64,000 nt of DNA from a candidate division FCPU426 bacterium (GCA_040756875.1 JBFLYH010000001.1:1388299-1452298), one strand, 5' to 3'; positions 7,815-47,457 are shown, counted from the stretch's first letter. Made by a program: numbers and translations. Notes: generated by a model not told the origin, from the sequence alone.

Positions 7815-9056
7815 TTACTTCACCAGCGCAACCTTTTTCTTTTCGCTTCGGACAATGCCACCCTGCTGGTTGGAAATCCTGATCGTCAGCAGATAAATCC
7901 CGGGCGCGGCTTCCGGCGCATTCCAGACGCAGGTCAGCATCTGTCCACTGCCGCCATCCCGGGACTCCAGGATGTGCGCCACCCTTTCCCCGCACATATT
8001 GTAAATATCCACTGCCACTTGAACCTGCCCCTCGGCCGGATAGGCGATCACCACCCGGTTACGGGCCGGATTGGGATAGACGGTCGTTTCACTCAAACGC
8101 AGAAGCGGGGAGGGCGTGGCGGTCATCGTCGCCGTCACGGTGGGAGTCCCCGTATCCGCAGGGGTCGGCGTCACGGTGAATGAAGGCGTGACCGTGGGCG
8201 TCGGTGATAGGGTCGGAGTGTCGGTCCAGGTGCCGGTGGCAGTGAGCGTCGGCGTCATCGTCAGCGTCGGCGAAGCTGTCGCGGTAAATGTCACGGTCAG
8301 GGTCGGGGTCGCGGTCGGCGTGGCAGTGGAAGTTTCAGTAGCCGTAGAAGTCGGCGTAACGGTCTGGGTTGGAGTCGAAGTCAGGGTGACGGTCGGGGTG
8401 AGGGTCGGCGTGGGCGTGGGAGGCGGCATGCGCACCGTGACGTAATCCACGACAAAGTAGGTGCTGCCAAAACCCTCGGCCGTCAGTTGCACGCGGAAAG
8501 TGTGCCCCGGGCCGATCCACCCCATGATCGAGGCATAATTAAGGATGAATGTCCCGGTTGTGCTTGTGCTGGAGACAAGGTCCCGATACTGCCAGGCCCC
8601 GTTGATTTCCTGGATGCCAACCTTCCATGTCATGGATGGCGAGAGCGAGGTCACGCGGATCTCAATGTGCGTGAAAACACTGGTGTTTGGAGAAAGGAGC
8701 GGAGAAAGCACCTTGCCCCAGGTGCTGTCCGCTGTCCGCGTCACGGCCGCTTGCGAAACCAGGCAGGAGTAGGAAATATGCGCATTGAACAGCGGATCGT
8801 CGCTTTCATCCTGCCAGCCTGCAGGCTGTGCACCCGGCGGTCCTGCATCAAAGTCGTCCCGCCAGTATTCATAAGTCGGCGTATTGGTCGGAGTGGGCGT
8901 GCTGGTGGAGGTGCAGGTGTGAGTTGATGTCGCCGTCAGGGTAGGTGTGTCTGTCGGGGAGGCGGCCCAAAGCCCCTCTCCTTGGGCCAACAAAACCAGC
9001 CACAGGCCGGCCGGTATCATAAGGGTGTGCTGCATTACCCTTTTCATGGGCATCAA
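7815..9056 (-). CDS. Secreted protein: one copy of the repeated ~150-aa module + TP linkers + T9SS type-A-like CTD
   Basis: Signal peptide; WRDDF..QPAGW...WGKVLSP...VDYV module; C-terminal YPNP...GERVA...PGIY...KKVALVK. Confidence 0.8.
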   Translation of the reverse strand: MMPMKRVMQHTLMIPAGLWLVLLAQGEGLWAASPTDTPTLTATSTHTCTSTSTPTPTNTPTYEYWRDDFDAGPPGAQPAGWQDESDDPLFNAHISYSCLVSQAAVTRTADSTWGKVLSPLLSPNTSVFTHIEIRVTSLSPSMTWKVGIQEINGAWQYRDLVSSTSTTGTFILNYASIMGWIGPGHTFRVQLTAEGFGSTYFVVDYVTVRMPPPTPTPTLTPTVTLTSTPTQTVTPTSTATETSTATPTATPTLTVTFTATASPTLTMTPTLTATGTWTDTPTLSPTPTVTPSFTVTPTPADTGTPTVTATMTATPSPLLRLSETTVYPNPARNRVVIAYPAEGQVQVAVDIYNMCGERVAHILESRDGGSGQMLTCVWNAPEAAPGIYLLTIRISNQQGGIVRSEKKKVALVK

Positions 9057-9240
9057 CAGCCAGTTGCAACGAATACCGTTAACTTTTCAGACTATGCTTG
9101 ACTCCTTTCTTTTCAAAGAAAAACCACGTCTGATTCCCGGCCTTCTCATCATTCTAATTATATCACTGTTTCGAACGGATCGTTCCCGGAAAAAGGCTTG
9201 TTTTACAAGGCGTTCTTCAGGCATGGCATCTACCAGGCTT

Positions 9241-12200
9241 TTATCGGATAATAGCGACCTTTTTAGTTTCAGAAAAAACGATTCTTCCGTTCGCGTCAAG
9301 TATCCTGATCCGAGCTAAATACACCCCTGGCGCCTGGTCCGAACAATTCCAGAGCAGGGTCATGGTCTGCCCCCGGCCAGCCTGTTGATTCTCGATCAAA
9401 TGCGCCACGCGCTCTCCTGCCAACTGGTAAATATCAATGGTGACCGTATAATTGCCGCTGCGGGTATAAGCGAAGGTCGTCCGGTTACGGGCCGGGTTGG
9501 GATAGACCATGACCCGGCCTGCCTCCAGCCAGGGCGTAGGCGAAGGCGTGGCTGTGTTCAGCGTGCCGGCACCGATCGCGTTGTCAGGCGTGGGGCTGAT
9601 GGTGAAGGTCGGAGTGGGCGTGGGCGGCAAGGCATAGATTCTCACTGAATCAGCCAGTAAATAACTGCCCGGGCTTCCTTCCAGCGTCAGTTGGATAAAA
9701 AAACTCTGGCTGCCGCTGCGACCCATGACCGTGGGAATGTCGAACACAAAACTTCCGGTCTGGGAGGTCAACGGCATGAGCGTCCAGAAGGACCACGCCC
9801 CGCCGTTTTCCTGGATGCCCGCGTTCCACACTGCGCCGGGCGAGAGGCCGAGCACCCGGAGTTCCAGCCGGTTATACTGGGAAACATTGCACGTTAAAGC
9901 CGGAGAAAGCACCTTGCCCCAGGTGTCGTCCGCCGTGCGGGTAAGCGCGGCGCAGGACGGCGAGGCAGAGTAGGCCAGATGACAATCAAAGGCCGGGTTC
10001 TCGCTTTCATCGCTCCACCCCGGCGGTTGCACCCAAAACGTCCCGTTGAAGTCCTCCAGCCAGAAGGTGTCGGCCGGCGTCGGACTCGGGGTCGGCCGGT
10101 TGCCGTTCACCACGCTGACGTTTTCGACCAGCACCCAGGAGTTGTCCAACGAAAACTGGCTTTCCACACCGCCGACCGCCACGGTGAAATACTGGAGCCC
10201 ACTTTGCAGGGAGAGCGGCAGGTAGTGGCGTAGATTGAATTTGAAAGCCCCCTTCACCGGGGAATCATAGTGCATGCGGACCGAATACCCGCTGGGAGTG
10301 TTGCTTAAAAAGGCGTACCATTTTCCATAGAGGTCTTTGATATCGATGCGCAGGTCAGCCTCCTGGTCCATGTCAACGCTGAACGGGTAAATTTTTTCGA
10401 TCGAGCCGTACCCGTAAGGCTCAGCCCCGCGATACAGGTCATAGATCCTGACCCCATTCTCCAGCGGCGCAAACTGGGCGCGATTATAAACCGGCGTCCA
10501 CTGGGCGGTGACGCCCGGCAGCTGGGTGTTGAGCATGATCTGCTCGCCCCCCGCAGCCGGAGGCACCACGGTCCAGGGGTCGGACGGCCGGGGCACTGGT
10601 CCCGGGTTTTTCAGGTTGCTGCCTGTGTAAGCAGTGGCGTTCACCTCGGCCCCGGACCGCAGCAGTCCGGCCGCCGTGAACAGCCCCATCAAATGCGGCG
10701 TCCCGTCTTGTTCGGTGTCGTTGAGCAGCCACACCAGCCCGCCCGCGAGGTCGGTCTGGTAGATGCTGTCCCAGACATGGGTGAAATAGTCGCTCACTTC
10801 CGCCGCCGGCGGGCTGAGGTTGAAATCCATCCCAAACTCTTCAAACAGTATGGGTTTAACCTGGCCTAATGATTGCATCAGGGTTCTGGCTTGCATGGCC
10901 GCGCCGATATAAGCGTCCCTGCGGTCGTAATAGTGAATGGTCACCACATCCACAGGCGCCAGATCCAGGCTGCGCAGGCTGTCCGGCCAGGCCGTAGCCG
11001 CTATCACCAAATGATTGGGATCCAGGCTCTGCATATACCCCGCCAGATCCTGGTGCCAATCCAAGGCGTACGGATGAGCTGTCAAATCACCGTTAACCAG
11101 CGCCACATAGACATCCAACTCGTTGGTGACGCCCCACCCTAAAATGCGGTCGTCGTCCCGGAACCGCTCCAGAATGAGGCGCACATGGTTCTTTTGGTCC
11201 GTTCGGGTCGCGGGAGAATAATTCCGCGTATAGGGGAAAAACGTGAATTCCACTTTCAACCCCGCTTTGTCCGCAAAGTACAGGAATTGTTCCATGCGGG
11301 CCAACATCTCGGGCTTGACCGCGGCCCCGCCGAATTCATCATAATGGATGAACGTGCGGATGGTGTTGAATCCCAGGCCGGTCGCGCGGCTCAGCTCGGT
11401 TTCGATCATGGCTTGATCCCATTCCACCCACATCTTTTGCCAGCCGTGCGCCGAGGGATAGTAATTGGCCCCTTTGATTTTAACGATCGTTCCCTGCAAC
11501 TCCAATTGTTCGGGGTCCGCGCCGCTGACCCGGACGAAATCACCGGCCGCCGCCTGGCGGCGGTTCCCGAATACCCGCACACTCTCCACCGTGATTTGTT
11601 CGCCCGCCGCCCCTTCCACGGTAATTTGCACCACGATATCCTTTTCGCCGGACCAGCCGATGATCTGGGCGTAATCAAACTCGAAAACCCCGTCCGTGGT
11701 CTGACTGGCGCATAAATCCCAGTAATTTGAAGTCCCATTTTCCAAAATGCCCACTTTCCACGAAACCGCGGAAGAAAAGCTGCTGACATTGATCTCCAGG
11801 CGGTTATAGGCGTTGACATCACAGCGAATGGGCGAGGACAACACCTTGCCCCAGACATCCTCCGCAGTGCGCACGATTGCAGCCGACGAAACGCCGCTGT
11901 AGTTTATCTCGGCGTTGAAAGTCGCATCATCCGTTTCATCGAACCAATTGGAGGGCTGGAGGCCTGCGGTGCCGGTAAAATCCTCATGCCATATGTCCGC
12001 CGTCAGGGCGCTGGGCGTGGGGGTACGGGTCGGCGTTGAAGTCGGCCCGTCGGGCGTGAAGCTTGGGGTGGGCGTGGGGCTGGCCGTCGGAGTGGGTGGA
12101 GCCGAACGCACGCTCACATAATCCGCCACCAGATACTTCCCCACACCTCCCTCCACGGTCAATTGAACGTAAAAATCCTTCGTGCCGCTCCATCCCATGG

Positions 12201-12741
12201 CTGAAGCATAGGGATATATGAAAGTTCCGATCTGGCTCTGGCTCGCGCACAGGCTTTGGTACGTCCAGGAACCCCCATATTCCTGTATACCGATCTTCCA
12301 GGTGGTGGTCGGTGAAAGCCCGGCGATCTTGACTTCTACATAACCAAACTGGCTGGTATCGCAATGCAAAAGCGGCGAAAAAACCTTGCCCCAGACATCT
12401 TCGGCGGTCCTGGTTACCGCGGCCAGGGACGGTTGAAAGGAATAAGCTATTTCTGCATTGTAGGTATTGACATCCGTTTCGTCCTGCCATCCGGCCGGTT
12501 GTAGTCCGGGTGTACCTCCGTTAAAATCATCCCGCCAGAATTCAATCACCGGTGTGGCGGTCGGGGAGGGCGTGAGGGTAAACGTTACGGTTGCGGTGGG
12601 AGAAGGTGTCTGGGTATCCGTATCTGTCGGAGTAAACGTAGGGGAGGCTGCCATGACGGTGTTGAAAATGCAAAAAAACATCACTATGTTAAAAGTAATG
12701 ATTCCTGCCCACGTTCTCTGCTTCCCAGGCATGACAGCCAT
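9241..12741 (-). CDS. Secreted GH-A clan (GH5/GH2-like) glycoside hydrolase with 3 repeated modules and T9SS-like CTD
   Basis: KGANYYP, GFNTIRTF, acid/base WGVTNE, IHYY, nucleophile PILFEEFG, GGLVW; CTD YPNP...KKVAIIR. Confidence 0.82.
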   Translation of the reverse strand: MAVMPGKQRTWAGIITFNIVMFFCIFNTVMAASPTFTPTDTDTQTPSPTATVTFTLTPSPTATPVIEFWRDDFNGGTPGLQPAGWQDETDVNTYNAEIAYSFQPSLAAVTRTAEDVWGKVFSPLLHCDTSQFGYVEVKIAGLSPTTTWKIGIQEYGGSWTYQSLCASQSQIGTFIYPYASAMGWSGTKDFYVQLTVEGGVGKYLVADYVSVRSAPPTPTASPTPTPSFTPDGPTSTPTRTPTPSALTADIWHEDFTGTAGLQPSNWFDETDDATFNAEINYSGVSSAAIVRTAEDVWGKVLSSPIRCDVNAYNRLEINVSSFSSAVSWKVGILENGTSNYWDLCASQTTDGVFEFDYAQIIGWSGEKDIVVQITVEGAAGEQITVESVRVFGNRRQAAAGDFVRVSGADPEQLELQGTIVKIKGANYYPSAHGWQKMWVEWDQAMIETELSRATGLGFNTIRTFIHYDEFGGAAVKPEMLARMEQFLYFADKAGLKVEFTFFPYTRNYSPATRTDQKNHVRLILERFRDDDRILGWGVTNELDVYVALVNGDLTAHPYALDWHQDLAGYMQSLDPNHLVIAATAWPDSLRSLDLAPVDVVTIHYYDRRDAYIGAAMQARTLMQSLGQVKPILFEEFGMDFNLSPPAAEVSDYFTHVWDSIYQTDLAGGLVWLLNDTEQDGTPHLMGLFTAAGLLRSGAEVNATAYTGSNLKNPGPVPRPSDPWTVVPPAAGGEQIMLNTQLPGVTAQWTPVYNRAQFAPLENGVRIYDLYRGAEPYGYGSIEKIYPFSVDMDQEADLRIDIKDLYGKWYAFLSNTPSGYSVRMHYDSPVKGAFKFNLRHYLPLSLQSGLQYFTVAVGGVESQFSLDNSWVLVENVSVVNGNRPTPSPTPADTFWLEDFNGTFWVQPPGWSDESENPAFDCHLAYSASPSCAALTRTADDTWGKVLSPALTCNVSQYNRLELRVLGLSPGAVWNAGIQENGGAWSFWTLMPLTSQTGSFVFDIPTVMGRSGSQSFFIQLTLEGSPGSYLLADSVRIYALPPTPTPTFTISPTPDNAIGAGTLNTATPSPTPWLEAGRVMVYPNPARNRTTFAYTRSGNYTVTIDIYQLAGERVAHLIENQQAGRGQTMTLLWNCSDQAPGVYLARIRILDANGRIVFSETKKVAIIR

Positions 12742-12822
12742 AAACCCCCCAGAAGTCTGACGACTCTGGCTAACCCCTGCTTATATTGTATCCTTAAAAA
12801 TCCCTATAAACACTATCTATAT

Positions 12823-12851: not shown

Positions 12852-12863
12852 GTTTTTCCAAAT

Positions 12864-12917: not shown

Positions 12918-15401
12918 TTATTTGATAATAGCGACTTTTTTCTTCTCTTTCATAAGCACCTGTCCGCCTGCATCCGTGATTACAATCCGGCATAAATATA
13001 CGCCCGGCGCCACGTTCACCGCATCCCAGGCAGTCCTCAACGTCTGGCCGGTTCCGCCGTTTACCGTTTCCGTGACCGAAGCCACCCGTTCACCCGCCAG
13101 CGTAAAGATATCGATGGTTACTTTCCCCGCGCCGGGCACGGTGTAGGCAAAAAACACTTTGCCTTTGGCCGGGTTGGGATAGGGCAAGACCTGGTTGGCA
13201 GCCACGAAAGGCGTGGCCGTCGGGGTGGCGGTCGGCGTGGGGGTATTCATTGCCAGTTGCGCGGTTGGCTCAGGCGTGGGGGTCAAGGTCAGGGTTGGAA
13301 CGGGTGTGGAGGTTGCCGAAAAAGTTGGAGTCGCGGGTATGTAGATGGCGCCTAGTACGGTCTCTTCGCCGCCCACACGCACCCAATCCACTTCCACGGC
13401 CTTGCCCGGCGCACCCTCCACGGTCAGCTGGACGCGGAAGGCGTGCGTACCACTCCATCCTGTTGCGGTTGCGTAATTATACTTGTATGTTCCGGTTCCG
13501 GTCTGACTTCCGCTGAGGTTGTAGTAGGTCCAACTGCCCTCAGCCTCCTGGATGCCGACTTTCCAGCTGGCGTCGACGCTCACCGAAGCCACGGCTACCT
13601 CCACATAGCTATATACCGAAACATTGCAGTTGATGACCGGCGAAAGCACTTTGCCCCATTCACCCTCGGCGGTGCGCGTTACCGCGGCCAGTGAGCTGAC
13701 CGCGGAGTAAGCGATTTCGGCGTTGAAATTGGCGTCATCCGTTTCGTCCATCCAGTTCGCGGGTTGTTGCCCCTGGGTGCCCGCAAAATTCTCGAAATAC
13801 GCATTGCTCGGTGTCGGAGTGGGAGTGGGCGTTATGGTCGGCGTGGGGGTGGGCGAGGGCATGCCTTCACGGTGAATCCGCACCTGGTCAAACGTGACAA
13901 CGCAATTGCCGCCCTCGGAAATCAGTTCCACCCCCAGGTTTTTCACCCCGCTCCAGCCGGAGGCGGTCGGGATGTCGAAGGAATAGGTGCCCGGCGCCGC
14001 CAGCGAACCGCTGCAGACATGCTCCTCCCACCCGCCGGCCTGGCTGAACACCGCGATCTTGGCCGTGCCGCCCGAAATGGCCGAGATCGTCACCTCCAGA
14101 GTGCTGTACAGGTTCAAATTCACATCCGCAGAATAGGACAGCACTTTGCCCCACTCCTGGCCGGAGACCGTGGTCACTTCGGCCAGGCTGTCTGTGGCCG
14201 CGTAGGCGATCTGGGCGTTCATGCCGCCGTCGTCCGATTCATCGTACCATCCTGCCGGCTGCGCCCCCTGCGAGCCGCCGGAGAAGTGCTGGTTCCAGAA
14301 CAGGGGGTTGTTTTCCCACCAGTCGATCCGGTCGCCCCCGAACGTGGGCGCGACGACATCGGCATCGCCATCCCCGTCCACGTCAGCGGTTATCACATCA
14401 ATCACGCCCCCGTAATTGTCATCGATGACATGGGCGGTGATATTTTCGGAGCCGTCGTTCTCCCACCAGACGATGTCACAGGAATCCTTGGCGCAGCCGA
14501 CCACATCCAGGTCCCCGTCATTGTCCATGTCGGCCGCCAGGACGGATTGCGCTCCGTCGAAGCCGGTGGCGATGACATGTTTGGTAAAACTCATCGACAG
14601 GTTGTTCTCATACCACGCAACCGTATCCTGCCCTTCGGAAGCCGCCAAAATGTCCACGTCGTTGTCCTGGTCCAAATCCACAGCCACCACATCCGTAGGA
14701 TCGATAAAATTCGAGTCGACTACCCTCTCGGTATATTTATCGAGAGAAGGGTCGTATTCAAGGACCAAAATGTCCTCGACATCAACTGCGCCTGCAATGA
14801 CATCAATATCCCCGTCATTGTCCATATCACCGGCGTCGATGAAATAAGTATACTTCGGATTGACGAAGACGTTTTTTTCAACAAAGCCGCCGGAGCCGTT
14901 GTTGATCCATTTGATAATATCGCCCTGGTATATCTTGCTGCAGAGCACGTCCAGATCATTGTCCAGGTCCAAATCCTTGACCCTTATCTTTTTGATCCAG
15001 GCAAATTCCGGGTATGGCTCCGAGGTCATGTTGTGGTGGGTGAAATTCTCCGAGCCGTCGTTCTCCAGCCACATGGAACGGCTGCCGCCGACGGCAATAT
15101 CCACATCCCCGTCCCCGTCCAAATCGCCGGCACTGACCGTATCATCATACTTGATATTTGTCCCGGCCGTATGCCTGATAAAATTGCCGACACCGTCATT
15201 TTCCCACCAATAAACCGTTTGCTCCACAATGCCAATAATGTCCATATCGCCGTCAGTATCCAAATCCGCAGCGCAAATTTCCAAAGGTCCATCGACGCTA
15301 TCCTCGACTTCGCGTTTTTGAAAGTCACTGCTCCAAGCCAAGGATTGCAGTAAAAGCAAGGCCGCACCCAACATGCCGTACCGGACGATTGAATTGCGCA
15401 T
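12918..15401 (-). CDS. Secreted FG-GAP/VCBS repeat protein with 2 repeated modules and T9SS-like CTD
   Basis: Seven DxDxDGDxD...WxEN repeats, two QPAGW/QPANW...WGKV modules, and CTD YPNP...KKVAIIK. GGAGG SD. Confidence 0.85.
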   Translation of the reverse strand: MRNSIVRYGMLGAALLLLQSLAWSSDFQKREVEDSVDGPLEICAADLDTDGDMDIIGIVEQTVYWWENDGVGNFIRHTAGTNIKYDDTVSAGDLDGDGDVDIAVGGSRSMWLENDGSENFTHHNMTSEPYPEFAWIKKIRVKDLDLDNDLDVLCSKIYQGDIIKWINNGSGGFVEKNVFVNPKYTYFIDAGDMDNDGDIDVIAGAVDVEDILVLEYDPSLDKYTERVVDSNFIDPTDVVAVDLDQDNDVDILAASEGQDTVAWYENNLSMSFTKHVIATGFDGAQSVLAADMDNDGDLDVVGCAKDSCDIVWWENDGSENITAHVIDDNYGGVIDVITADVDGDGDADVVAPTFGGDRIDWWENNPLFWNQHFSGGSQGAQPAGWYDESDDGGMNAQIAYAATDSLAEVTTVSGQEWGKVLSYSADVNLNLYSTLEVTISAISGGTAKIAVFSQAGGWEEHVCSGSLAAPGTYSFDIPTASGWSGVKNLGVELISEGGNCVVTFDQVRIHREGMPSPTPTPTITPTPTPTPSNAYFENFAGTQGQQPANWMDETDDANFNAEIAYSAVSSLAAVTRTAEGEWGKVLSPVINCNVSVYSYVEVAVASVSVDASWKVGIQEAEGSWTYYNLSGSQTGTGTYKYNYATATGWSGTHAFRVQLTVEGAPGKAVEVDWVRVGGEETVLGAIYIPATPTFSATSTPVPTLTLTPTPEPTAQLAMNTPTPTATPTATPFVAANQVLPYPNPAKGKVFFAYTVPGAGKVTIDIFTLAGERVASVTETVNGGTGQTLRTAWDAVNVAPGVYLCRIVITDAGGQVLMKEKKKVAIIK

Positions 15402-24600: not shown

Positions 24601-25105
24601 TGTTGCCCAGGTCGGAAAACACCCGCGCCAGGTAACTTTCGAAAGCCGTGCGGTAATTCGGTTCCCAGATGCTGACCAGGGAGTCAGGCGCATTGCCATG
24701 ATTCTCAGGGTCCCAAGGCGAACCGTACTGGTTGACATAATGGGCGTTCGGATGGGCGGTCCAGTACCAATCCGGCACCGGGAAGGGGTTGACGCGCAGG
24801 ACAATGGCAAACCCTTTTTCGCGCAATTTGCGAATCTCGGCCTGTTTCTGGCTGATGTAATTGGCGTCGTATACGCCCTGACTGGGTTCGTACAGCGCCC
24901 AGCGGATGTATACGTTACGCAGTCTGAGCCCTGCCGTATATTCGGCGTCGAGATGGGAGGCATCCGTGGGTTCACCGTGATTAGGCTGGCCGGGATTGGA
25001 AATGGACTCGTCCCAGGCTGTCCCGTAAAAAGCGGCTTGAGCCGGCGAAAGGGACAAGCTGGCAAATAGAATAGAAAGAACAACGAATGTTTTCTTGCCT
25101 GGCAT
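15614..25105 (-). CDS. Giant secreted modular glycoside hydrolase (GH14/GH42-like barrel with CBM insert, repeated modules, LVIVD repeats, FG-GAP integrin-alpha repeats, TP repeats, T9SS-like CTD)
   Basis: Signal peptide; GRWGEVAYP and YGENAG resemble beta-amylase catalytic motifs; NGGFE...DDISI CBM4/9-like insert; [15 protein letters not shown] repeats; [11 protein letters not shown] FG-GAP repeats; CTD ...KKVALIK. Confidence 0.8.
16621..17240. repeat. Intragenic tandem repeat, about 5 x 120 bp (two alternating 60-bp subunits) encoding a TP linker
   Basis: Near-identical sequence at 16681, 16801, 16921, 17041 and 17161; encodes [20 protein letters not shown] / ...ETWTE. Confidence 0.9.
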
Positions 25106-35126: not shown

Positions 35127-35201
35127 GGAAGTACCCCCCGAATGATGTTTCCGTAACACCTGTATATATAATGAATCGCAATGGATATTGTTAACCAGAG
35201 G

Positions 35202-39810: not shown

Positions 39811-39894
39811 TCCAGCCTCCCCACCAAACGGCCTCAGGCAGGATACGCCCAAAGCCTTGTATATATCGGGATTATATCATAGCGCAATATATAG

Positions 39895-39999: not shown

Positions 40000-42900
40000 T
40001 TATCGAATCAAGGCCACCTTCTTCTTCAATTTCATTACCTCGTTGCCACTGGCACCGGTTATTTCAATGCGGCAAATATAAATGCCCGGCGCCACGCCCT
40101 CGGCTTGCCAAGTCGTAACCAGGGTCTGCCCCTGGCCGCCGTCCCGGAATTCCGTGATCGCGGCTACCCGTTCCCCGGTCAGCCGGTAGATGTCAATCTT
40201 CACCTTGCCCGCACCTGCAAGTGTATAGGCGAAATGCACATTCCCGCGCGAGGGGTTGGGATAAGTCATGACCTGGTTTTTGCCCAGCCAGGGGGTGGGC
40301 GTGGAAGTCGGCGTCAGGGTCGGGGTTGATGTCGGTGTCAGGGATGGAATGGTTATTGGCGTCGAAGTGGGAGTGGGAGTAGGAGTGAATACAGAGGTAA
40401 CGGACGGCACCGGCGTCAGGGGAGCCATGGTACTGCCCATGACACTGCCCGCTTGGCCGACCCATAGATAGTCGACCTCAAACCATTTGCCGGCCGCGCC
40501 CTCCACGACCATCTCCAGATTGAACTCCTGGACGCCCGCCCACCCGGTTATCGCGGAATAATTGTAAGTATATTCCCCGGTGCTTGACGAGCTGTTCTGC
40601 AGGACGGCAAATTCCGTCTCGCTGTCTTTCTTGCGAATGATCAATTTCCATGCGGTGTCGGCCGAAATCCGGTCCACCTTGATTCCCACGATCGGATACT
40701 CACTGACGTTCGCTGTGAGCAAGGGAGACTGGACTTTTCCCCAGCCGATGGCATCCGCCGTGCGGGTAATACAAGCCACGGAATAGGCGGAGGAAAAAGC
40801 GACGTGCGCATTAAAGCCCGTGTCGTCGTTTTCGTCCTTCCACTCTTGCGGCTGCACCCATAATGTGCCTTTGAAATGGTCGGCCCAGGCCATGCCGGCC
40901 GGCAAGGTCGGTTCCGGCGGCCGGGTCCCGTTCACGACGCTGATGTTTTCCAGCCAGGCGGCGGCATAGTCGGTCGGCGAGGGCAGCACCCCGTTGGCCG
41001 CCCCCACGATCAGCCTGAAACTCCGGACGCCATTTTGCAGGCTTTCGGGGAGATAATACTTGAGGTTGTAAATATATTCGCCCGGCAGGCCTGCGTCGTA
41101 TTCCATCCGGACGATGGGATCGCTGGTCGAGCTGCCCAATTGCAAATAGGTATACCATACCTGCTGAACCTTCCGGACGTTCATCCTCACATCCGCTTCC
41201 TGGTCCATATCCACGGTAAACGGCTGGCTGGCGGCAATGCTGCCCCAAAAATCCTGGGTCGTCGATCCGGCAACATTGAGTTTGACTTCCGTGCCGTCTA
41301 TCACGCGGCTGGTCGAACCGTCGCGGACCGGCCACTGGGCGATGATGTCCGGCACTTGGTAGTTGAGCAGGATCTGTTCGGCGCCTGCGGCTGCCGGCAT
41401 CACGGCCAAGGGCGCGGCGGGCCTGGACACCTGGTTAAGCGGATTGAACGTCGTGCCTTGATAGGCGTTCAACACCGCTCCCACGCCGTCGCGCATGGCC
41501 CCGGCCGTGGTAAAACAACCCTTGTTTTGGGTGACAAAATCGTTCAAAGTCCAAATCATGGTGCCGGCGATGTCCGCGGAATATGCCTGCGAATAAACAC
41601 GGTTGAAATAGGCGGCGATTTGTTCCGCAGAATACCCGGCATTATAATCCAACCCGTGTTCTTCGAACAGAATCGGCCGGGTTACGCCTTTTTTCGCCAT
41701 AAGCTGTCTGGCCTGCATGACCATGCCCAGCTCCGGTTTGTCATCGCCGAGCGAATGGAGGGCAAAAACATCTATATTCGTCAGGTCCAGCGCCCGGATG
41801 GCAAAAGGCCGGCTGGAGGCAGCGACCAGAAGATGATTCGGGTCCTGGGCCTTCATATGTTCGGCCATGTTGGCATGCCACGCATACGCTTCGTCTTTTT
41901 TGCTTTGCAAAGCGAAATGCAGCGCATAAAGATCGAGTTCGCTGGTTACCCCCCAGGCAAAGATGCGGTCGTCCTCCTTGAAACGTTCAAGCACGGCGGT
42001 CAAATGATCCCTCATTCCCTGCCACTTCGAGACCGAATAATCCCGGGCATAGGGGAAGAACGTGAGTTCGACCCGCAGGCCCAGGCGGTCGGCAAGGTAT
42101 AAAAAGTCCTCCATACGCGCCAGCATTTCCGGCCTCACGCTGGCCCCGCCGAATTCTTCGTAGTGCACGAAAAATCTCACCGCGTTGAACCCAAGTTGGG
42201 CAACACGCGCGAGTTCTTGTTCGACCCGTTCCGCATCCCATTGGCTCCACACTTCGTGATTCGTCTCATCGTAGGTCGCAGGATAATAATTGACCCCTTT
42301 GATTTTAACCACCGTGCCATTCAGTTCCAGCTGTTCGGGTTCGGTCGCGCTGCGATGGATGAAACTGACGGCAGCCGGCCTGCGCACTCCGAATATTTTC
42401 ACGTAATCAATGGCCAGGTTGCTTCCGGCGATCCCCTGGACCTTAATCTGAATCTGAAGCCGTTTCTCTCCTGACCAGCCGGCGATCGCCGCATAATTGA
42501 AATAATAGCGGCCCGGGGATGCCTGCCACGGGCAGAGATCGTAATCATTGCCTTCCACCTCATGAATGCCGACTTTCCAGGCGGTGCCAGCGGAAACGCC
42601 GTCTACTTTGATCTCCAAATGATCATACTGGCTGGCATTGGTCAGGAACGGCAGGGACACGGTTTTCCCTTCCGCGTTTTCCAGCAGAGTCAACGTCGCG
42701 GTCGTGCTCCCGCTTCCGTCGCCGACGAACTCGGAATCCAGGCCGGAATTCTGGCTTTCGTCAAGCCAGCCAAAAGGTTGGCCGGAAATGTTCCGGAAAT
42801 GGTCAAACCAGAAATCCGCGATCGGGGTGACCGAAACCGTGGCTGTCATGGTCATGGTCGGCGTCGGGGAAACGGTCGGCGTCTGCGTGGCTGTAAGGGT

Positions 42901-44487
42901 TTGCGTAGGCGTGGGGCTGATGGTGCAGGAGGCGGAAAGCGTCGAGGTCACTGTGGGTGTCGGCGTCACCGTGGGCGTCGGAGTCAGCGGAACGCTCTGA
43001 CGCAGGCTCACGCTGTCAAAAATGGCCGAATGGTTCGTCCCCTCGGTAAACAAATCGACGCCGAACGTGACGATTCCGCTCCAGCCCATGACGCTGCGCA
43101 GATCCCAGGCATAGGTTCCGGCCGCCGAGATTCCGCTCTGGATGTCGTACCCTCCTGTCCCCCGCGCTACGCCGACCTTGACGGTCCCGGTGGCGACTTG
43201 ATCGATTTTGACTTCCAGAAAAGGATACTGATCAATATCCGCCGTTATGTTTTGGCCGGTCATGATCTGCGCATAATTGGCCTGGCCGTCATTGGTTTCG
43301 ATCACATAGCCGTCGCGCGTGTCGTACCAGGCAATGGGCCTGGTTAGGAGCCACCCTTGGGGGGGATTGCCGGGCGAAGACGGAGGGATGTCATCCGAAT
43401 AGTTGAACTCGTCCTGCCAGGCCACTGTCGCCGAAACAGTCTGAAGCGGATTGGTGCTGATTCTCACGAAGTCCAACTTCACCTGGCAGTTTGCGCCATC
43501 CGAAATCAACTCCACACCCAGGTATTTGATTCCGCTCCACGCGCCGCTGGTGGCCGCGGGAATATCGAAAGTATACAGCCCGGGCCGGGTAATCGACTGG
43601 GCGCAGGTAAACGATTGCCACCCCCCCGAGGTGGTGAACACATTGACTCTGAACGTTCCGTTCGTTACGCTGTCCACTTTGACTTCCAGCGTGGCATACA
43701 CATTCAGATTCACGTCCTGCGAAAAGGACTGCACCTTCCCCCACGAAGCCCCGGGGACTGTTTGCAACAAAGCCCTCGAGATTTGGCTGTCATAGGCGAT
43801 TTCGGCGTTGAAGCTGCCGTTATTGGTTTCATCGTACCATCCCGGGCATTGCATCCCGGGGGACGAAGGAGGGACATCGTCGCTATAGACGAATTCTTCC
43901 CTCCACTTGTACAGGGCATAGGCGGGTTTGCGGGTTATTTTAATGTAATCCAATTCAATCCATTTTCCGGAAGCGCCCTCGACCACGACTTCGAACTTGA
44001 AAGCATGCGTGCCTGTCCAGCCAGCCACGGCGGCATAATCGTAGCAAAACGTTCCGCCGGTGTTCTTGGTGGCCTGGATCACCCAGGAAGGAGAACCCGG
44101 GGTGCTTTCGCGCAGAATCAGTTTCCAGCCCGTGCTCGACGACAGCCGGTTGACTTTGATTTCCACCAGGGGATACTCATCGACATTGACCACCCGCTGC
44201 GGGGTCGACACCTTCCCCCATACGTCCTGGGCGGTCCGCGTCACAGCCGCCACGGAGGATTGATACGAGTAGGCGATTTCCGCGTTGAAGTCGGCGGAAT
44301 TGGTTTCGTCGATCCAGCCGGCAGGCTGCGCCCCCGGCGCGCCTCCGTCGAAATGATTGATCCAAATGTCCGGCGTGGGGGTAGGCGTCGGGGTCGCCGC
44401 CGCCCATCCCGGCAATGTAAACAACAGCCATCCGACGAACAACCACCTGGTTTGCGACCCTGTCTGAATCCCGCTTTGGTTTTTCAT
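40000..44487 (-). CDS. Secreted GH-A clan (GH5/GH2-like) glycoside hydrolase with 5 repeated modules and T9SS-like CTD
   Basis: Paralog of 9241..12741 (KGVNYYP, WGVTSE, PILFEEHG); CTD ...KKVALIR. Start chosen at ATG 44487 (GGAGG SD); the ORF is open from 44529. Confidence 0.8.
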   Translation of the reverse strand: MKNQSGIQTGSQTRWLFVGWLLFTLPGWAAATPTPTPTPDIWINHFDGGAPGAQPAGWIDETNSADFNAEIAYSYQSSVAAVTRTAQDVWGKVSTPQRVVNVDEYPLVEIKVNRLSSSTGWKLILRESTPGSPSWVIQATKNTGGTFCYDYAAVAGWTGTHAFKFEVVVEGASGKWIELDYIKITRKPAYALYKWREEFVYSDDVPPSSPGMQCPGWYDETNNGSFNAEIAYDSQISRALLQTVPGASWGKVQSFSQDVNLNVYATLEVKVDSVTNGTFRVNVFTTSGGWQSFTCAQSITRPGLYTFDIPAATSGAWSGIKYLGVELISDGANCQVKLDFVRISTNPLQTVSATVAWQDEFNYSDDIPPSSPGNPPQGWLLTRPIAWYDTRDGYVIETNDGQANYAQIMTGQNITADIDQYPFLEVKIDQVATGTVKVGVARGTGGYDIQSGISAAGTYAWDLRSVMGWSGIVTFGVDLFTEGTNHSAIFDSVSLRQSVPLTPTPTVTPTPTVTSTLSASCTISPTPTQTLTATQTPTVSPTPTMTMTATVSVTPIADFWFDHFRNISGQPFGWLDESQNSGLDSEFVGDGSGSTTATLTLLENAEGKTVSLPFLTNASQYDHLEIKVDGVSAGTAWKVGIHEVEGNDYDLCPWQASPGRYYFNYAAIAGWSGEKRLQIQIKVQGIAGSNLAIDYVKIFGVRRPAAVSFIHRSATEPEQLELNGTVVKIKGVNYYPATYDETNHEVWSQWDAERVEQELARVAQLGFNAVRFFVHYEEFGGASVRPEMLARMEDFLYLADRLGLRVELTFFPYARDYSVSKWQGMRDHLTAVLERFKEDDRIFAWGVTSELDLYALHFALQSKKDEAYAWHANMAEHMKAQDPNHLLVAASSRPFAIRALDLTNIDVFALHSLGDDKPELGMVMQARQLMAKKGVTRPILFEEHGLDYNAGYSAEQIAAYFNRVYSQAYSADIAGTMIWTLNDFVTQNKGCFTTAGAMRDGVGAVLNAYQGTTFNPLNQVSRPAAPLAVMPAAAGAEQILLNYQVPDIIAQWPVRDGSTSRVIDGTEVKLNVAGSTTQDFWGSIAASQPFTVDMDQEADVRMNVRKVQQVWYTYLQLGSSTSDPIVRMEYDAGLPGEYIYNLKYYLPESLQNGVRSFRLIVGAANGVLPSPTDYAAAWLENISVVNGTRPPEPTLPAGMAWADHFKGTLWVQPQEWKDENDDTGFNAHVAFSSAYSVACITRTADAIGWGKVQSPLLTANVSEYPIVGIKVDRISADTAWKLIIRKKDSETEFAVLQNSSSSTGEYTYNYSAITGWAGVQEFNLEMVVEGAAGKWFEVDYLWVGQAGSVMGSTMAPLTPVPSVTSVFTPTPTPTSTPITIPSLTPTSTPTLTPTSTPTPWLGKNQVMTYPNPSRGNVHFAYTLAGAGKVKIDIYRLTGERVAAITEFRDGGQGQTLVTTWQAEGVAPGIYICRIEITGASGNEVMKLKKKVALIR

Positions 44488-44574
44488 TTTCCCCCTCCGG
44501 CGATTGGATTTCTCCAGTGAAACCATCATCCGTCCGCTTGCGTTTCACCGTTCCTTTCAGCGGACGGATCAGAA

Positions 44575-47457
44575 TCATTTGTATCCATATACTCTTACAT
44601 AATCCAGCAGGATAAACTGCCCGGGCTCCCCCTCCATGTTGATCTGCACGATGAATTCCCTGACCCCGCGCCAGCCGGTCTTGGCCCGTAGGTCCGCCGA
44701 ATAGGTCAGGGCGTCGGCCGAGCCGGCGACAAGGTCCCAGTAATTGTCCGTGCCCGGCTCGCGCAGGGCGATGTTCCAGCGCGTGCCCGGCGAGTTGCGG
44801 ACCACTTTGGCTTCCACGTAGTTGTAGCGGTCGACATCGAGGCGGATCAGGCGGCTGCGGATGTTCCCCCAGGTGCTCTCCGCGGTGCGCGTGACCGCGG
44901 CGAAGCCGGGTTCGCACGCATACGCGATCTCGGCATTGAGGTCCGCCTGGTCGGTTTCATCCTGCCATTGCGAGGGTTGCCGGCCCGGCGTGCCGTTGAA
45001 GTCGTCCTGCCATCCGTTCATGCAGGGCGGCGTGACGGTGGGCGTGCCGGTCGGGCGCTGCCGCGGTTCGGCCAGGCCGGGCACAAAGGCGCCCATCCGG
45101 TTGTTCACGATGACGGCCCGGGAGGAAAACCCGGCGGTTGTGATGAACATCATCCAATATCCCGGTCCGAGATCAGGGGGAAACCTCAGGCGCAGCGTGT
45201 CCTTGGTCTGGGACCACGCCAGGGGATAAAGCCGGGAAGTCAGGTCCAGCATTTGCCCGGAAGAACTGTACACGCCCATGCTGCCGCTGTCCAGGGCGAG
45301 GAGCCAAGCCCGGGGATAATTCACAGCCGAACTGCCCCACCCCTGGCCGCAGCCTGCCCCCCAGGGGCCGCGAAATCCCTGCCCGATCACGATGCCGATG
45401 GCCCCGGGTTTGGCCACATCGGACCAGGTCTTGATCCGCGGGCCTGGCCCGGATTCAGGCGGCAGGGCTTCGCCGCGATAAGAACAGGCTTCCAGGCTGG
45501 CCAGATATTCCAGCCGGTCCTCGCCGCCGGTCAGCAGCACGCGGCCGTCCGCCAGCAGCGTGGCCGTATGCTCCCGGCGCTGGCCCGCCAGCGGGGCTGA
45601 AAGGTGGAAATGGTCCGTGGCCGGATGGTACCATTCTGTTTCCGCGGCGCCGCCCGCCAGCAGGACGTCGCCGCCGGGCAGCAGGGTGGCGGTGTGCCCG
45701 CTGCGGGCCCGGTTGAGGCGGCCGGCGGAAACGAACCGGTTGGTCGCGGGATCATAGCGTTCCGCCCCGGCTAAAAGGCTTTCCTGATTGGCGCCGCCGG
45801 CGATCAAAACCTGGCCGTTGGCCAGGCGTGTGGCCGTGTGCATGGCTCTGGGTTCGGCCATGGCGCCGGCGGGCGAAAAACGCCGGGTCAGCGGATCGTA
45901 CAATTCGGCGCTGGCCAGGTAACGCGCGCCGTTGTACCCTCCGGCGATCAGCACTTTGCCATTGGCCAGCAAGGTTGCGGAATGCTTTTCCCTGGGTTCA
46001 GCCATGCGGCCCGCGGAGATGAAGCTTCTGCTTTCAGGATCATAGAGCTCGGCGCTTGCGAGATGCTTCTGGTTGAATCCCCCGGCCAGCAGCACCTGGC
46101 CGTTGTTCAGGAGTGTGGCCGTTTGCTTTTCCCGCCGGGCCAGCATCCTGCCCGTCATTTCGAAGCGCCGCGTGTCCGGATGGTAAAGCTCGGCGCTGTC
46201 ATAATACTCGCCGTCGCCGTAGCCGCCGGCCAGCAGCACCTCGCCTCCGGGCAGGAGGGTCGCGGAATGGCAGTGCCGCGGAACCAGCATCATGCCCGCC
46301 GCCAGGATGGCATTGGCCTGGGGGGCGAAGCGTTCGCACTGGGCGAGATAACGTCCGTTATAACCGCCCGCGATCAGAACCTGGCCGTCCGGCAGCAGGG
46401 TGGCGGTGTGGGTGTGACGGGAAAGGCTCATGGATCCCAGCGCGGTCCAGGCGCCGGTTCCGGGCAGGTAGAGTTCCGGCCGCAGCCCGCTGCCGCCGCC
46501 GAAGACGAAGACTTTGCCGTCTGGCAGCAGCGTGGCGCTGTGGAAGGCGCGGGCCGAAGCCATGGGCGCCTGCGTCAGCCAGCGGTTGCCGGCAGGATCA
46601 AACCTCCATGCCTGAGGCCCGGACAGCAGCATCACCGTGCCGTCAGGCAGCAGCGTGGCGGTCAAACCGGGCCGGAGGGCGTCCAGCTGGCCCACAACCT
46701 GCGCGCGCCGCTCCTGGGGGAAATACCGCTCCACTGCCGCGGGCCCGCCGCCGGCCAGCAAGACGCTTCCGTCCGCCAGCAGCACGGCCGCCGGGTCGAT
46801 GCGGTCGCCCGCGAGCCGGCCGGCGGACTGAAAGTCATTGCGCCCGATGCGGTAGATTTCCACGGCCGGGTTCCCGCCGCCGGCCACCAGCACCTGCCGC
46901 TCGTCCAACAGGACGGCCGCATGCCCGGCGCGAGCGAATTGAAGGTTTCCGGCTTTTCGGAATTTTCCGTTTCGCGGGTCGTACAGTTCGGCCGCCTGCG
47001 GGCCGCCGCCGGCCAGCAACACCTGGCCGGTCGGCAGCAGCGTGGCCGTGTGCCCTGCCCGCGCAAAATGCATGCTGCCCGTGGAGGTAAACTCGCCGGT
47101 TGCCGGCTGGTAAATCTCAGCCGAGGATTGCGGCTTTCCGAACGCGTCCTCGCCGCCCGCGATCAGAACCGTGCCGTCGGGCAGCAGCGTGGCCGTGTGC
47201 CGGGCCCGCCGGTTGGTCATGTATCCGGCGACGCGGAAAGTCCCGTTTTGCGGATCGAACAGCCAGGCGCCGTAGCCCGGCCGGCCCTGGCTGAAGCCTC
47301 CGGTCAGCAGCACTTTTCCGTTGGGAAGCAGGGTCGCGGCATGCCGCGCAGTGTCCGTGGTCGCTTCCACCGGATAGCACCACTCCCCGGCAGCGGCTGA
47401 TTTGAGGTAGGCGAATATCAACAGGGCGGATAGCAGGATGCGAGCGGTAGGTCTCAT
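44575..47457 (-). CDS. Exported Kelch-repeat (double beta-propeller) protein ending in one repeated module, no CTD
   Basis: Signal peptide; about 14 R..HTATLL.DG.VL.AGG...AELY.P repeats; final WQDDF..QPSQW...LDYVRV module. Confidence 0.85.
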   Translation of the reverse strand: MRPTARILLSALLIFAYLKSAAAGEWCYPVEATTDTARHAATLLPNGKVLLTGGFSQGRPGYGAWLFDPQNGTFRVAGYMTNRRARHTATLLPDGTVLIAGGEDAFGKPQSSAEIYQPATGEFTSTGSMHFARAGHTATLLPTGQVLLAGGGPQAAELYDPRNGKFRKAGNLQFARAGHAAVLLDERQVLVAGGGNPAVEIYRIGRNDFQSAGRLAGDRIDPAAVLLADGSVLLAGGGPAAVERYFPQERRAQVVGQLDALRPGLTATLLPDGTVMLLSGPQAWRFDPAGNRWLTQAPMASARAFHSATLLPDGKVFVFGGGSGLRPELYLPGTGAWTALGSMSLSRHTHTATLLPDGQVLIAGGYNGRYLAQCERFAPQANAILAAGMMLVPRHCHSATLLPGGEVLLAGGYGDGEYYDSAELYHPDTRRFEMTGRMLARREKQTATLLNNGQVLLAGGFNQKHLASAELYDPESRSFISAGRMAEPREKHSATLLANGKVLIAGGYNGARYLASAELYDPLTRRFSPAGAMAEPRAMHTATRLANGQVLIAGGANQESLLAGAERYDPATNRFVSAGRLNRARSGHTATLLPGGDVLLAGGAAETEWYHPATDHFHLSAPLAGQRREHTATLLADGRVLLTGGEDRLEYLASLEACSYRGEALPPESGPGPRIKTWSDVAKPGAIGIVIGQGFRGPWGAGCGQGWGSSAVNYPRAWLLALDSGSMGVYSSSGQMLDLTSRLYPLAWSQTKDTLRLRFPPDLGPGYWMMFITTAGFSSRAVIVNNRMGAFVPGLAEPRQRPTGTPTVTPPCMNGWQDDFNGTPGRQPSQWQDETDQADLNAEIAYACEPGFAAVTRTAESTWGNIRSRLIRLDVDRYNYVEAKVVRNSPGTRWNIALREPGTDNYWDLVAGSADALTYSADLRAKTGWRGVREFIVQINMEGEPGQFILLDYVRVYGYK

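What the first reader, a model, noticed from the sequence alone, without database searches (positions are those of the whole stretch)
7815..47457. Unrecognised ~150-aa module present in 28 copies across 8 adjacent proteins
Seen: consensus W.[DE][DEH]F.G..G.QP.[GN]W.DE.D...FNA.I.YS...A.VTRTA...WGKV.SP....Y..EI.V.....W..GIQE..G.W..L...G.F.Y.YA...GW.G...F.V.L.VEG..G....VD.VR. Manual counts, including divergent copies: 7815 x1, 9241 x3, 12918 x2, 15614 x3, 26505 x7, 36265 x6, 40000 x5, 44575 x1. A still more divergent copy may follow each GH5-like barrel. I cannot assign it to a named family. Inference: the alternating beta pattern, N-terminal F, C-terminal D-x-V-R and conserved Trp residues suggest a jelly-roll carbohydrate-binding module, or alternatively a homotypic assembly module.
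Basis: partly seen in the sequence, partly recalled or inferred. Interest (0 to 1): 0.85.

Follow-up and report, generated by a model that had tools for sequence, protein, structure and literature searches.

The report
Unnamed sugar-binding-like module, 28 copies
Eight neighbouring surface-protein genes of an uncultured groundwater bacterium carry 28 copies of a 147-residue module that belongs to no named family, folds like the sugar-binding modules of polysaccharide-degrading enzymes, and probably holds the cell or its enzymes onto a polysaccharide, though binding has not been tested.

Summary
E-values run from 1e-32 to 1e-64; the best of 88 reversed or shuffled controls is 0.16.

No Pfam, NCBIfam or solved-structure sequence family claims the module. 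A confident AlphaFold2 model (pLDDT 95.9) is a beta-sandwich jelly roll. Its best structural matches are almost all carbohydrate-binding modules (CBM4, 22, 29, 86 and others; Z 11-13.6, 8-14% identity), and none stands out.

The family is small: 514 of 1.84 billion cluster representatives. Within its phylum it sits in one order (12 of 15 genomes, against 2 borderline hits in 84).

Six of the eight proteins carry a type IX secretion sorting domain over the curated cut-off and one a sub-threshold copy. Four carry glycosidase-like barrels. Two PorV/PorQ-family genes lie inside the locus.

Three module subtypes pair consistently with particular neighbouring domains.

Best reading (about 0.5): a new, lineage-restricted family of CBM-like surface modules. 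Glycan binding is inferred, not shown. Main rival: an adhesive or structural coat module.

The parts
7815..9056 (-). P1, 413 aa: signal peptide, PT linker, 1 module (8424-8870), PT linker, T9SS C-terminal domain (7818-8081)
9241..12741 (-). P2, 1166 aa: modules at 12100-12543, 11563-11997 and 9628-10068; GH5-like barrel 10579-11562; divergent post-barrel copy 10102-10578; CTD 9244-9507
12918..15401 (-). P3, 827 aa: FG-GAP propeller, type B module 13866-14303, type A module 13365-13805, CTD 12921-13181
15614..25105 (-). P4, 3163 aa: N-terminal split glycosidase-like barrel (weak), type C module 22886-23332, two unnamed ~190-aa domains, type B modules 21098-21547 and 20567-21019, LVIVD and FG-GAP propellers, PT repeats, CTD 15617-15874
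26505..35159 (-). P5, 2884 aa: split glycosidase-like barrel with a large insertion; five tandem type C modules (31080-31535, 30621-31073, 30153-30590, 29715-30152, 29277-29708); two type A modules (27549-27956, 26961-27401); sub-threshold CTD 26508-26768
36265..39852 (-). P6, 1195 aa: six type A modules and nothing else but linkers (39304-39747, 38797-39240, 38287-38730, 37642-38085, 37099-37548, 36607-37050) plus CTD 36268-36528. Copies 1-3 are 88-94% identical in protein and 85-92% in DNA
40000..44529 (-). P7, 1509 aa: modules 43927-44370, 43450-43911, 42994-43425, 42385-42816 and 40450-40893; GH5-like barrel 41413-42387; divergent post-barrel copy 40927-41412; CTD 40003-40263
44575..47457 (-). 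P8, 960 aa: Kelch propellers, one type A module 44581-45018 at the very C-terminus, no CTD
25397..26347 (-). PorV/PorQ-family outer-membrane barrel gene between P5 and P4
   Evidence: NF033709 164.1 bits, cut-off 90; the same position is kept in sister genome G032
35299..36243 (-). Second PorV/PorQ-family gene, between P6 and P5
   Evidence: NF033709 150.8 bits, cut-off 90; the same position is kept in G032

Best explanation
The module is a previously unnamed, lineage-restricted family of non-catalytic beta-sandwich (jelly-roll) domains of the kind used as carbohydrate-binding modules. The eight proteins have signal peptides. Most end in a type IX secretion C-terminal domain, so they are most likely exported and held on the cell surface on long Pro/Thr linkers. 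There the module arrays would bind a polysaccharide multivalently. That would tether the GH5-like and other glycosidase-like barrels, and the propeller proteins, to the substrate or the cell to it. The three sequence subtypes (A, B, C) would have different specificities matched to their neighbouring domains. Shown: the repeat family, its fold, its absence from named families, its extracellular context and its narrow taxonomic range. Inferred: glycan binding, avidity, and subtype specificity.
For: (1) Fold. The AF2 model has pLDDT 95.9 and pTM 0.90, with 11 strands. With VIA-align, 150 chains score Z >= 8. By my reading of the titles, 18 of the top 20 rows are CBMs or non-catalytic modules of carbohydrate-active enzymes: xanthanase module 6fhn (Z 13.6, rmsd 2.5 over 133 residues), porphyran CBM 8xmz (13.2), CBM4-2 4bj0 (12.7), CBM29 (12.5), CBM86 (12.0) and CBM22 (11.8). 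Foldseek gives the same picture.
(2) Context in the window. Four of the eight proteins carry glycosidase-like barrels. The P2 barrel matches GH5 mannanases and a DUF5060 protein in the PDB (E 3e-7 to 1e-2). Its relative P0165 passes Pfam PF00150 (31.7 bits against a 23.5 cut-off). The barrels of P4 and P5 are weak.
(3) Subtype-partner rule, which also holds outside the window. Type C follows the split barrel in 3 of 3 representatives. GH5-like proteins carry only type A in 6 of 6. FG-GAP proteins carry B+A in 4 of 7 and A+A in 3 of 7.
(4) Wider family. In the 82 of the 150 listed representatives that I scanned, the module travels with other glycan-binding or adhesion domains (PA14, GLEYA, Laminin_G_3, F5/8 type C, CBM_4_9). 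It also travels with two different surface anchors, the T9SS CTD (27 of 65) and SLH.
(5) Export. TIGR04183 is over its cut-off in 6 of the 8 proteins, P5 is sub-threshold and P8 has none. Two PorV/PorQ genes lie in the locus. Elsewhere in the genome there is a SprA-like 2149-aa ORF and about 46 CTD matches.
(6) Composition. Trp is 3.7% of module residues against 1.1% in the genome's ORFs of 300 aa or more. That ORF set is six-frame and includes spurious frames.
Against: No binding data exist and no ligand is known. The structural Z-scores decline smoothly (13.6 down to 10.2 over 50 entries) with 8-14% identity, so the fold class is common and names no family or sugar. The same list holds non-lectin jelly rolls: MAM, Eph ligand-binding domain, reelin, gingipain K1 adhesin and phage tail proteins. 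Positions conserved across the whole family (W18, F7, P15, three Gly, D140) look like fold determinants rather than a binding site. Half of the window's proteins (P1, P3, P6, P8) have no glycosidase-like domain. In 29 of the 65 shorter representatives Pfam sees no domain at all. Only about 10 of the stored relatives carry either barrel. The subtype-partner rule may reflect shared descent of orthologues rather than function. I could not map conserved residues onto the model, because no coordinates are returned.
Confidence: 0.5

Rival explanations
1. A structural or adhesive coat module. The arrays act as rigid spacers or protein-binding adhesin units that build a surface layer or mediate attachment to cells or particles. 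The analogy is with the repeated cleaved-adhesin jelly rolls of the T9SS cargo proteins gingipain and HagA, or with MAM domains. Glycan recognition is not the point.
For: P1 and P6 consist of nothing but modules, linkers and a CTD. Many relatives have no catalytic domain. The gingipain K1 adhesin domain (4itc, Z 10.3), MAM and Eph domains are structural neighbours, and so are phage tail and fibre proteins. Copy number changes fast: the sister species has 27 copies distributed 1, 2, 2, 3, 4, 5, 5, 5 against 1, 3, 2, 3, 7, 6, 5, 1 here. P6 copies 1-3 are 85-92% identical in DNA. This is typical of surface arrays under diversifying or length selection.
Against: The highest-ranking structural neighbours are CBMs rather than adhesin or MAM domains. 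No Pfam Cleaved_Adhesin or MAM hit was reported for any of the 28 copies. Type A keeps many polar and aromatic residues conserved (36 invariant columns among 8 copies of 50-59% identity), more than a spacer would need. The subtype-partner pairing with glycosidase-like barrels is hard to explain for a mere spacer.
Confidence: 0.27
2. A self-anchoring module. It binds the bacterium's own surface glycan (an LPS-like polymer or the O-glycans of the Pro/Thr linkers), so the proteins cross-link into a glycoprotein coat. This is a special case of glycan binding with a different biological role.
For: The linkers between modules are long PT-rich stretches. P8 has no CTD yet ends in a module, so it would need another way to stay on the cell. 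Relatives use the module with SLH anchors as well. An earlier, unchecked note of this scan reports several GT39/ArnT-like periplasmic glycosyltransferases in this genome.
Against: There is no direct evidence. Linker glycosylation is not shown. The association with glycosidase-like barrels points outward to a substrate.
Confidence: 0.13
3. A degenerate, non-catalytic remnant of a GH16/concanavalin-A-like glucanase domain with no binding role.
For: The only sequence similarity to solved structures is to the first and last strands of GH16 beta-1,3-glucanases: 2hyk at E 0.033, with 'W.DEF.G' at the start and 'DYVRV' at the end. GH16 folds also appear in the structure lists.
Against: The module has 147 residues against about 240 for GH16. 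The match covers only about 45 + 12 residues and is not significant. CBM folds rank higher. With 514 family representatives and strong conservation, the domain looks selected rather than decaying.
Confidence: 0.05

Closest known systems
Beta-sandwich (type B-like) carbohydrate-binding modules: CBM4, CBM22, CBM29, CBM86, CBM61, CBM27, CBM16
   Same: The same jelly-roll fold and size (about 130-165 residues). Z is 11-12.7 with rmsd 2.4-3.1 over 122-140 residues. Like them, the module occurs in tandem, is appended to GH5-like and other glycosidase-like barrels, and sits in extracellular multi-domain proteins.
   Different: There is no sequence relationship detectable by HMMER: 0 of 28 copies hit at E <= 0.001, and the best are CBM_6 at 0.065 and CBM_15 at 0.13, one copy each. 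No CBM chain is found by the profile, apart from the hyaluronan-binding module 4d0q at E 0.32. Identity in the structural alignments is 8-14%. The ligand is unknown. Most family members have no catalytic partner.
Non-catalytic module (residues 658-814) of the Paenibacillus multi-modular xanthanase, PDB 6fhn
   Same: It is the best structural match for both the module (Z 13.6, rmsd 2.5, 133 residues) and the post-barrel copy (Z 11.8).
   Different: Identity is 14%, and it ranks only 0.4 Z above the next entry. I did not read the paper, so I cannot say what that module does.
Cleaved-adhesin (K1/K2/K3, HagA) jelly-roll domains of Porphyromonas gingivalis T9SS cargo
   Same: A repeated beta-sandwich module in large T9SS-exported surface proteins; the fold is similar (4itc, Z 10.3).
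   Different: No sequence match. It ranks lower than the CBMs. Those domains act in haemagglutination and adhesion after proteolytic processing (recalled, not tested here).
GH16 / concanavalin-A-like glucanases
   Same: The N-terminal 'W.DEF.G...P..W' and C-terminal 'DYVRV' strands resemble those of beta-1,3-glucanase 2hyk (E 0.033).
   Different: The module is about 100 residues shorter, the match is not significant, and no catalytic strand aligns.

Membership tests
Named CBM families that have a Pfam model (CBM_4_9, CBM_6, CBM_11, CBM_15 and others) | Significant match to the family's profile HMM | tested here: not met
   0 of 28 copies match any Pfam family at E <= 0.001. The weak hits are CBM_6 at 0.065 and CBM_15 at 0.13, one copy each. 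No family lies on the module in the 82 relatives scanned. The precomputed, newer Pfam labels of relatives list none either.
CBM families with a solved structure | Sequence similarity of the module profile to a CBM chain in the PDB | tested here: not met
   The A1 profile against 177,635 distinct PDB sequences gives a best E of 0.033, to a GH16 enzyme. The only CBM-type chain is 4d0q at E 0.32.
Carbohydrate-binding module (CAZy sense) | Discrete fold of a known CBM fold class (beta-sandwich) | tested here: met
   AF2 pLDDT 95.9. 18 of the top 20 VIA rows are CBMs or CAZyme modules, Z 11.3-13.6.
Carbohydrate-binding module (CAZy sense) | Lies within a carbohydrate-active enzyme | tested here: inconclusive
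   4 of 8 window proteins have glycosidase-like barrels. P2 and P7 are GH5-like; P4 and P5 are weak. The other four have none.
Carbohydrate-binding module (CAZy sense) | Demonstrated carbohydrate-binding activity | not testable with these tools
   Needs recombinant protein and glycan arrays, ITC or affinity gels.
CAZy CBM families without Pfam model or structure; dbCAN HMMs (e.g. dbCAN CBM11) | Match to the dbCAN/CAZy family model | not testable with these tools
   No dbCAN library is on hand. Doud et al. 2019 (PMC7031533, passages read) report 24 dbCAN CBM11 hits in a Goldbacteria genome. I could not test whether those are this module. The CBM11 structure 1v0a is only a mid-rank fold neighbour (Z 10.4) and is not hit by sequence.
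T9SS type A cargo (the host proteins, not the module) | C-terminal sorting domain TIGR04183 / PF18962 | tested here: met
   TIGR04183 is over its 23-bit cut-off in 6 of 8 proteins (P1, P2, P3, P4, P6, P7). P5 has only PF18962 at 24.4 bits, below the cut-off of 27. P8 has none.
Cleaved adhesin / MAM domains | Match to the family profile | tested here: not met
   Neither family appears among the hits for the 28 copies at E <= 1. There is fold similarity only (Z 10.2-11.3).

The most novel reading that the evidence does not exclude
The module arrays are not substrate-harvesting CBMs. They are the building blocks of a lineage-specific, self-assembling glycoprotein coat. Modules on one protein would bind the glycosylated Pro/Thr linkers, or the cell's own surface polymer, on neighbours. 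With the locus-encoded PorV/PorQ paralogues as dedicated shuttles, the eight proteins would knit into a surface 'fur' that displays enzymes and propellers, a T9SS-built functional analogue of an S-layer or cellulosome scaffold.
Probability: 0.1. Interest if true: 0.7.

Novelty: new member of a known kind. Interest (0 to 1): 0.45.

Why it matters
If the modules bind glycans, they define a new CBM family that current annotation does not see; its relatives are labelled 'hypothetical' or only 'T9SS sorting domain-containing'. The three subtypes could be mined for new specificities. The family makes up about a third of a 40-kb surface-protein island (4,128 of 12,117 residues). It is also the most expanded unnamed domain I met in this uncultured groundwater lineage, so it probably says much about how these bacteria meet their substrate or each other. 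It also shows that T9SS-type cargo islands with their own PorV/PorQ paralogues exist well outside Bacteroidota. The fold itself is ordinary and no new mechanism is implied, so the value is that of a well-delimited target for expression, binding assays and a Pfam/CAZy entry.

Tried and rejected
- **Homodimer prediction.** Two copies of the module, using alignment A1, gave 'no answer' (score 0.00, mark 0.42). This is no evidence either way on self-association.
- **Expression.** The only holder of window 7815-15401 is one DNA run of a groundwater metagenome, possibly the source sample. No RNA holder is listed, so expression could not be addressed and I laid no reads.
- **ESM Atlas.** The service was not available, and it held neither the module nor two stored homologues. 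No result.
- **The listing of cluster members.** The database was switched off, so the taxonomic labels of distant relatives could not be read.
- **The search for related loci with A1.** The alignment was too diverse for patterns. I repeated it with 8 type A copies (A2). That found 12 loci in only 2 uncultured-bacterium MAGs. The scan is pattern-limited and is not a census.
- **Weak partial HMM hit at P4 residues 290-385 (E 0.0047).** This region carries an 'NGGFED' motif. In relative P0021 the same region is Pfam CBM_4_9 (31.2 bits). I read it as a different jelly roll inserted in the barrel, not as a copy of the module.
- **Literature (passages of PMC7031533).** A search for 'FCPU426' gave 134 papers, of which 15 were listed. 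A search for 'Goldbacteria' plus 'carbohydrate-binding' gave 3 papers. Nothing in the listings or the passages I read describes this module. This is not an exhaustive search, and the supplements were not opened.
- **Binding-site mapping.** I wanted to map conserved residues onto the model to look for a binding cleft or a calcium site. The tools return no coordinates, so my ideas stay as inference. One is a concave face formed by the 'WKVGIQE' and 'F.VQL.VEG' strands. The other is a GH16-like structural Ca2+ site at the [DE]-F and D-x-V-R positions.


Full report
**What is there**

The window has eight large minus-strand ORFs between 7815 and 47457 (translations). I call them P1 to P8. I seeded an HMM on the six obvious copies in P6 and iterated it over the eight proteins. 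It settled on 28 domains of about 147 residues, with domain E-values from 6.9e-32 to 3.5e-64. In 88 reversed or shuffled versions of the same proteins the best E-value was 0.16.

W18 is invariant, and F7, P15, G51, G105, G131 and D140 are at least 90% conserved. The modules make up 4,128 of the 12,117 residues of the eight proteins. In the whole 3.22-Mb genome there are 37 copies in 14 ORFs, 28 of them in this window.

**Subtypes and turnover**

The 37 copies have a median pairwise identity of 29%, ranging from 14.5% to 93.8%. They fall into three recognisable groups:
- Type A is the canonical form, with the motifs 'AAVTRTAE..WGKV.SP', 'WK[VL]GIQE' and 'GW.G...F.VQL.VEG'. It includes P1.1, P2.1-3, P3.2, P5.6-7, P6.1-6, P7.1, P7.5 and P8.1.
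- Type B comprises P3.1, P4.2, P4.3 and P7.2.
- Type C comprises P4.1 and P5.1-5.
- P7.3 and P7.4 are outliers.

P6 copies 1-3 are 88-94% identical in protein and 85-92% in DNA, so they are recent tandem duplicates. The only sister species of the genus held has a syntenic island with 27 copies in eight ORFs, distributed 1, 2, 2, 3, 4, 5, 5, 5. Copy number therefore changes between close relatives.

**The extra copies after the GH5-like barrels**

The roughly 160-residue domain after the barrel in P2 (residues 722-880) and in P7 (1040-1201) gave only faint HMM hits. A profile of eight such domains (A3) aligns to the module profile over 124 colinear columns (hhalign probability 83%, E 9e-6). jackhmmer started from that domain runs into the whole module family. 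Its AF2 model is of middling confidence (pLDDT 70.2), but it has the same top structural neighbours as the module: 6fhn, 8xmz, 6sgf, 1gwk and 4bj0, at Z 10.2-11.8. I accept these as two further, very divergent copies.

**No named family**

- Pfam and NCBIfam find nothing on the module in the eight proteins.
- Scanned singly, 0 of the 28 copies reach E <= 0.001 against Pfam. The weak hits (CBM_6 at 0.065, CBM_15 at 0.13, CIA30 at 0.13 and others) each involve one copy.
- The A1 profile against all PDB sequences gives a best E of 0.033. That match is to the first and last strands of a GH16 beta-1,3-glucanase.
- In 82 of the 150 listed relatives (65, 17; 68 not scanned), no Pfam family overlaps the module.
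- The public names of relatives are 'hypothetical protein', 'T9SS type A sorting domain-containing protein' and 'cellulase family glycosylhydrolase'. Their precomputed, newer Pfam labels list no family for the module.
- One label, PF26410 on P0165, is not in the local Pfam copy. It is absent from the module-only relatives, so it cannot be the module.

**Fold**

The AF2 model built from A1 is very confident (pLDDT 95.9, pTM 0.90): an 11-stranded beta sandwich with one short helix.

Foldseek against the PDB gives 86 matches at E <= 0.001. They are headed by CBM4 (1gui), CBM22 (4xuo), CBM86 (6sgf), a mannanase CBM, CBM61 and CBM11, with TM-scores of 0.5-0.6.

The independent all-against-representatives alignment gives 150 chains at Z >= 8. 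By my reading of the titles, 18 of the top 20 are CBMs or non-catalytic modules of carbohydrate-active enzymes:
- 6fhn: Z 13.6, rmsd 2.5, 133 residues aligned.
- 8xmz: Z 13.2, rmsd 2.5, 125 residues aligned.
- 4bj0: Z 12.7, rmsd 2.9, 140 residues aligned.
- CBM29 12.5, CBM86 12.0 and CBM22 11.8.

The other two of the top 20 are reelin and a phage baseplate protein.

The scores fall smoothly and identity is 8-14%. The fold class is therefore clear, but no single family is singled out. Non-lectin jelly rolls (MAM, Eph, gingipain K1 adhesin, Z 10-11) are in the same list. Viral predicted structures match mainly tail and fibre proteins.

**Context**

All eight proteins begin with a hydrophobic signal-like segment (my reading; no predictor was run). 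Pro/Thr-rich linkers join their domains.

*Sorting domains.* Six proteins pass the NCBIfam cut-off for the T9SS type A sorting domain. P5 has a sub-threshold copy. P8 ends with a module and has none.

*Glycosidase-like barrels.*
- P2 and P7 carry a GH5-like barrel. The PDB matches are to GH5 mannanases and a DUF5060 protein (E 3e-7 to 1e-2).
- The relative P0165 passes PF00150.
- 'NEL'/'SEL' and 'FEE[FH]G' motifs sit where clan GH-A enzymes have their two glutamates. This is my reading against recalled knowledge.
- P4 and P5 start with a split barrel that resembles GH42/35 only faintly.

*Other domains.* These are FG-GAP, LVIVD and Kelch propellers.

*Secretion machinery.*
- Two PorV/PorQ-family barrel genes lie inside the island, just upstream of P5 and of P4 (164 and 151 bits against a cut-off of 90). 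The sister genome keeps them in the same places.
- A SprA-like 2149-aa ORF exists elsewhere in the genome. Its five colinear pieces are each below the family cut-off.
- About 46 CTD-type matches also exist elsewhere in the genome.
- I found no convincing PorU sortase; the best hit is 49 bits against a cut-off of 420.

**Distribution**

A full HMMER pass over 1.84 billion cluster representatives finds 514 proteins at E <= 0.001, 298 at <= 1e-10 and 117 at <= 1e-30.

Among the 99 genomes of the phylum, 14 have a match. Twelve of the 15 genomes in the window's order have one (family f1: 7 of 10 plus the window's own genome; f2: 4 of 4). Only 2 of the other 84 do, both borderline at E 3e-4 and 7e-4.

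One relative in the window's family is labelled 'candidate division FCPU426 bacterium' by NCBI. The DNA is held by a groundwater metagenome run.

More distant family members carry SLH anchors, PA14, GLEYA, Laminin_G_3, F5/8 type C, PKD and fn3 domains. The module is therefore an extracellular building block that is not tied to one anchoring system.

**Subtype-partner rule**

I classified the modules of stored relatives with subtype HMMs:
- Type C always follows the split barrel directly (3 of 3 representatives, with 2-5 copies each).
- GH5-like proteins carry only type A (6 of 6).
- FG-GAP proteins carry B then A (4 of 7) or A then A (3 of 7).

This is what one expects if the subtypes have specialised roles next to particular domains. 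These proteins are also relatives of the window's proteins, though, so they are not independent cases.

**Interpretation**

The best-supported reading is a new sequence family of CBM-like beta-sandwich modules. They would be displayed in arrays on T9SS-exported surface proteins and bind a polysaccharide multivalently. The fold, the glycosidase-like neighbours, the company of other lectin-type domains, the subtype pairing and the high Trp content (3.7% against 1.1%) point that way.

Several things point the other way:
- There are no binding data.
- The family-wide invariant residues look structural.
- Half of the window's proteins and most relatives have no catalytic domain.
- The fold is shared with adhesin and receptor domains.

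I put this reading at about 0.5. A structural or adhesive coat module gets 0.27, binding of the cell's own glycans 0.13, and a GH16-like remnant 0.05.

On the literature, Doud et al. 2019 (PMC7031533; I read passages only) link the FCPU426 16S cluster to Goldbacteria. These were recovered as cellulose-bound cells, and their genome had 24 dbCAN 'CBM11' hits. I could not test whether those hits are this module, nor whether that organism is close to this one. It is a lead only.

**Verdict**

This is a new member of a known kind of domain and not a new kind of system. It is a good, well-delimited candidate for a new Pfam/CAZy family and for binding assays.

Noticed in passing
window 25397-26347 (-) and 35299-36243 (-): Two PorV/PorQ-family outer-membrane barrel genes sit inside the cargo island, each just upstream of a giant protein (P4, P5). 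The sister genome G032 keeps both at the same relative places. They could be cargo-dedicated shuttles.
   Followed up: partly
window 4872-6836 (-) and 6833-7744 (-): Downstream of P1 lie two more genes. One is a 303-aa protein with a FlgD_ig/T9SS-like C-terminal domain. The other is a 654-aa protein whose N-terminus resembles PorV/PorQ (57.8 bits, below the cut-off of 90) fused to TPR repeats.
   Followed up: partly
window, P4 residues 746-940 and 943-1133; P5 residues 982-1200: A second unnamed domain of about 190-215 residues ('AYCYY...VEADLS...VGFD') has no Pfam hit. It occurs twice in P4 and once in P5, and also in relatives P0010 and P0012, always right after the split barrel.
   Followed up: partly
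window, N-termini of P4 (about 23333-25105) and P5 (about 32200-35159): The glycosidase-like barrel is split. In P5 its two halves (residues 50-271 and 776-981) are separated by about 500 residues. The insertion includes propeller-like 'W..LG' repeats that no Pfam model recognises.
   Followed up: no
window 16596-17290: A 120-bp DNA tandem repeat, 5.8 copies at 92% matches, encodes the TETPT-type linker repeats of P4.
   Followed up: no
window 44575-47457 (-): P8 (Kelch propellers plus one module) is the only one of the eight proteins without a T9SS C-terminal domain. It ends one residue after its module, 46 nt before the start of P7.
   Followed up: no
window 47636-51240 (-): An ECF-type sigma factor, a sigma-54-type response regulator and a histidine kinase lie directly upstream of the island. 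In G032 a similar regulator-kinase pair sits inside the island.
   Followed up: no
window 58357-60210 (+): A right-handed beta-helix protein (Beta_helix, NosD-like) with a 'YPNPGRDRV'-type C-terminal sorting domain; it has no module.
   Followed up: no
G000 C1:865312-868770 and C2:433374-433907: A SprA-like 2149-aa ORF matches in five colinear pieces, each below the family cut-off. There is only a weak PorU-like hit (49 bits against a cut-off of 420). About 46 CTD-type matches occur genome-wide. The T9SS of this lineage appears divergent.
   Followed up: partly
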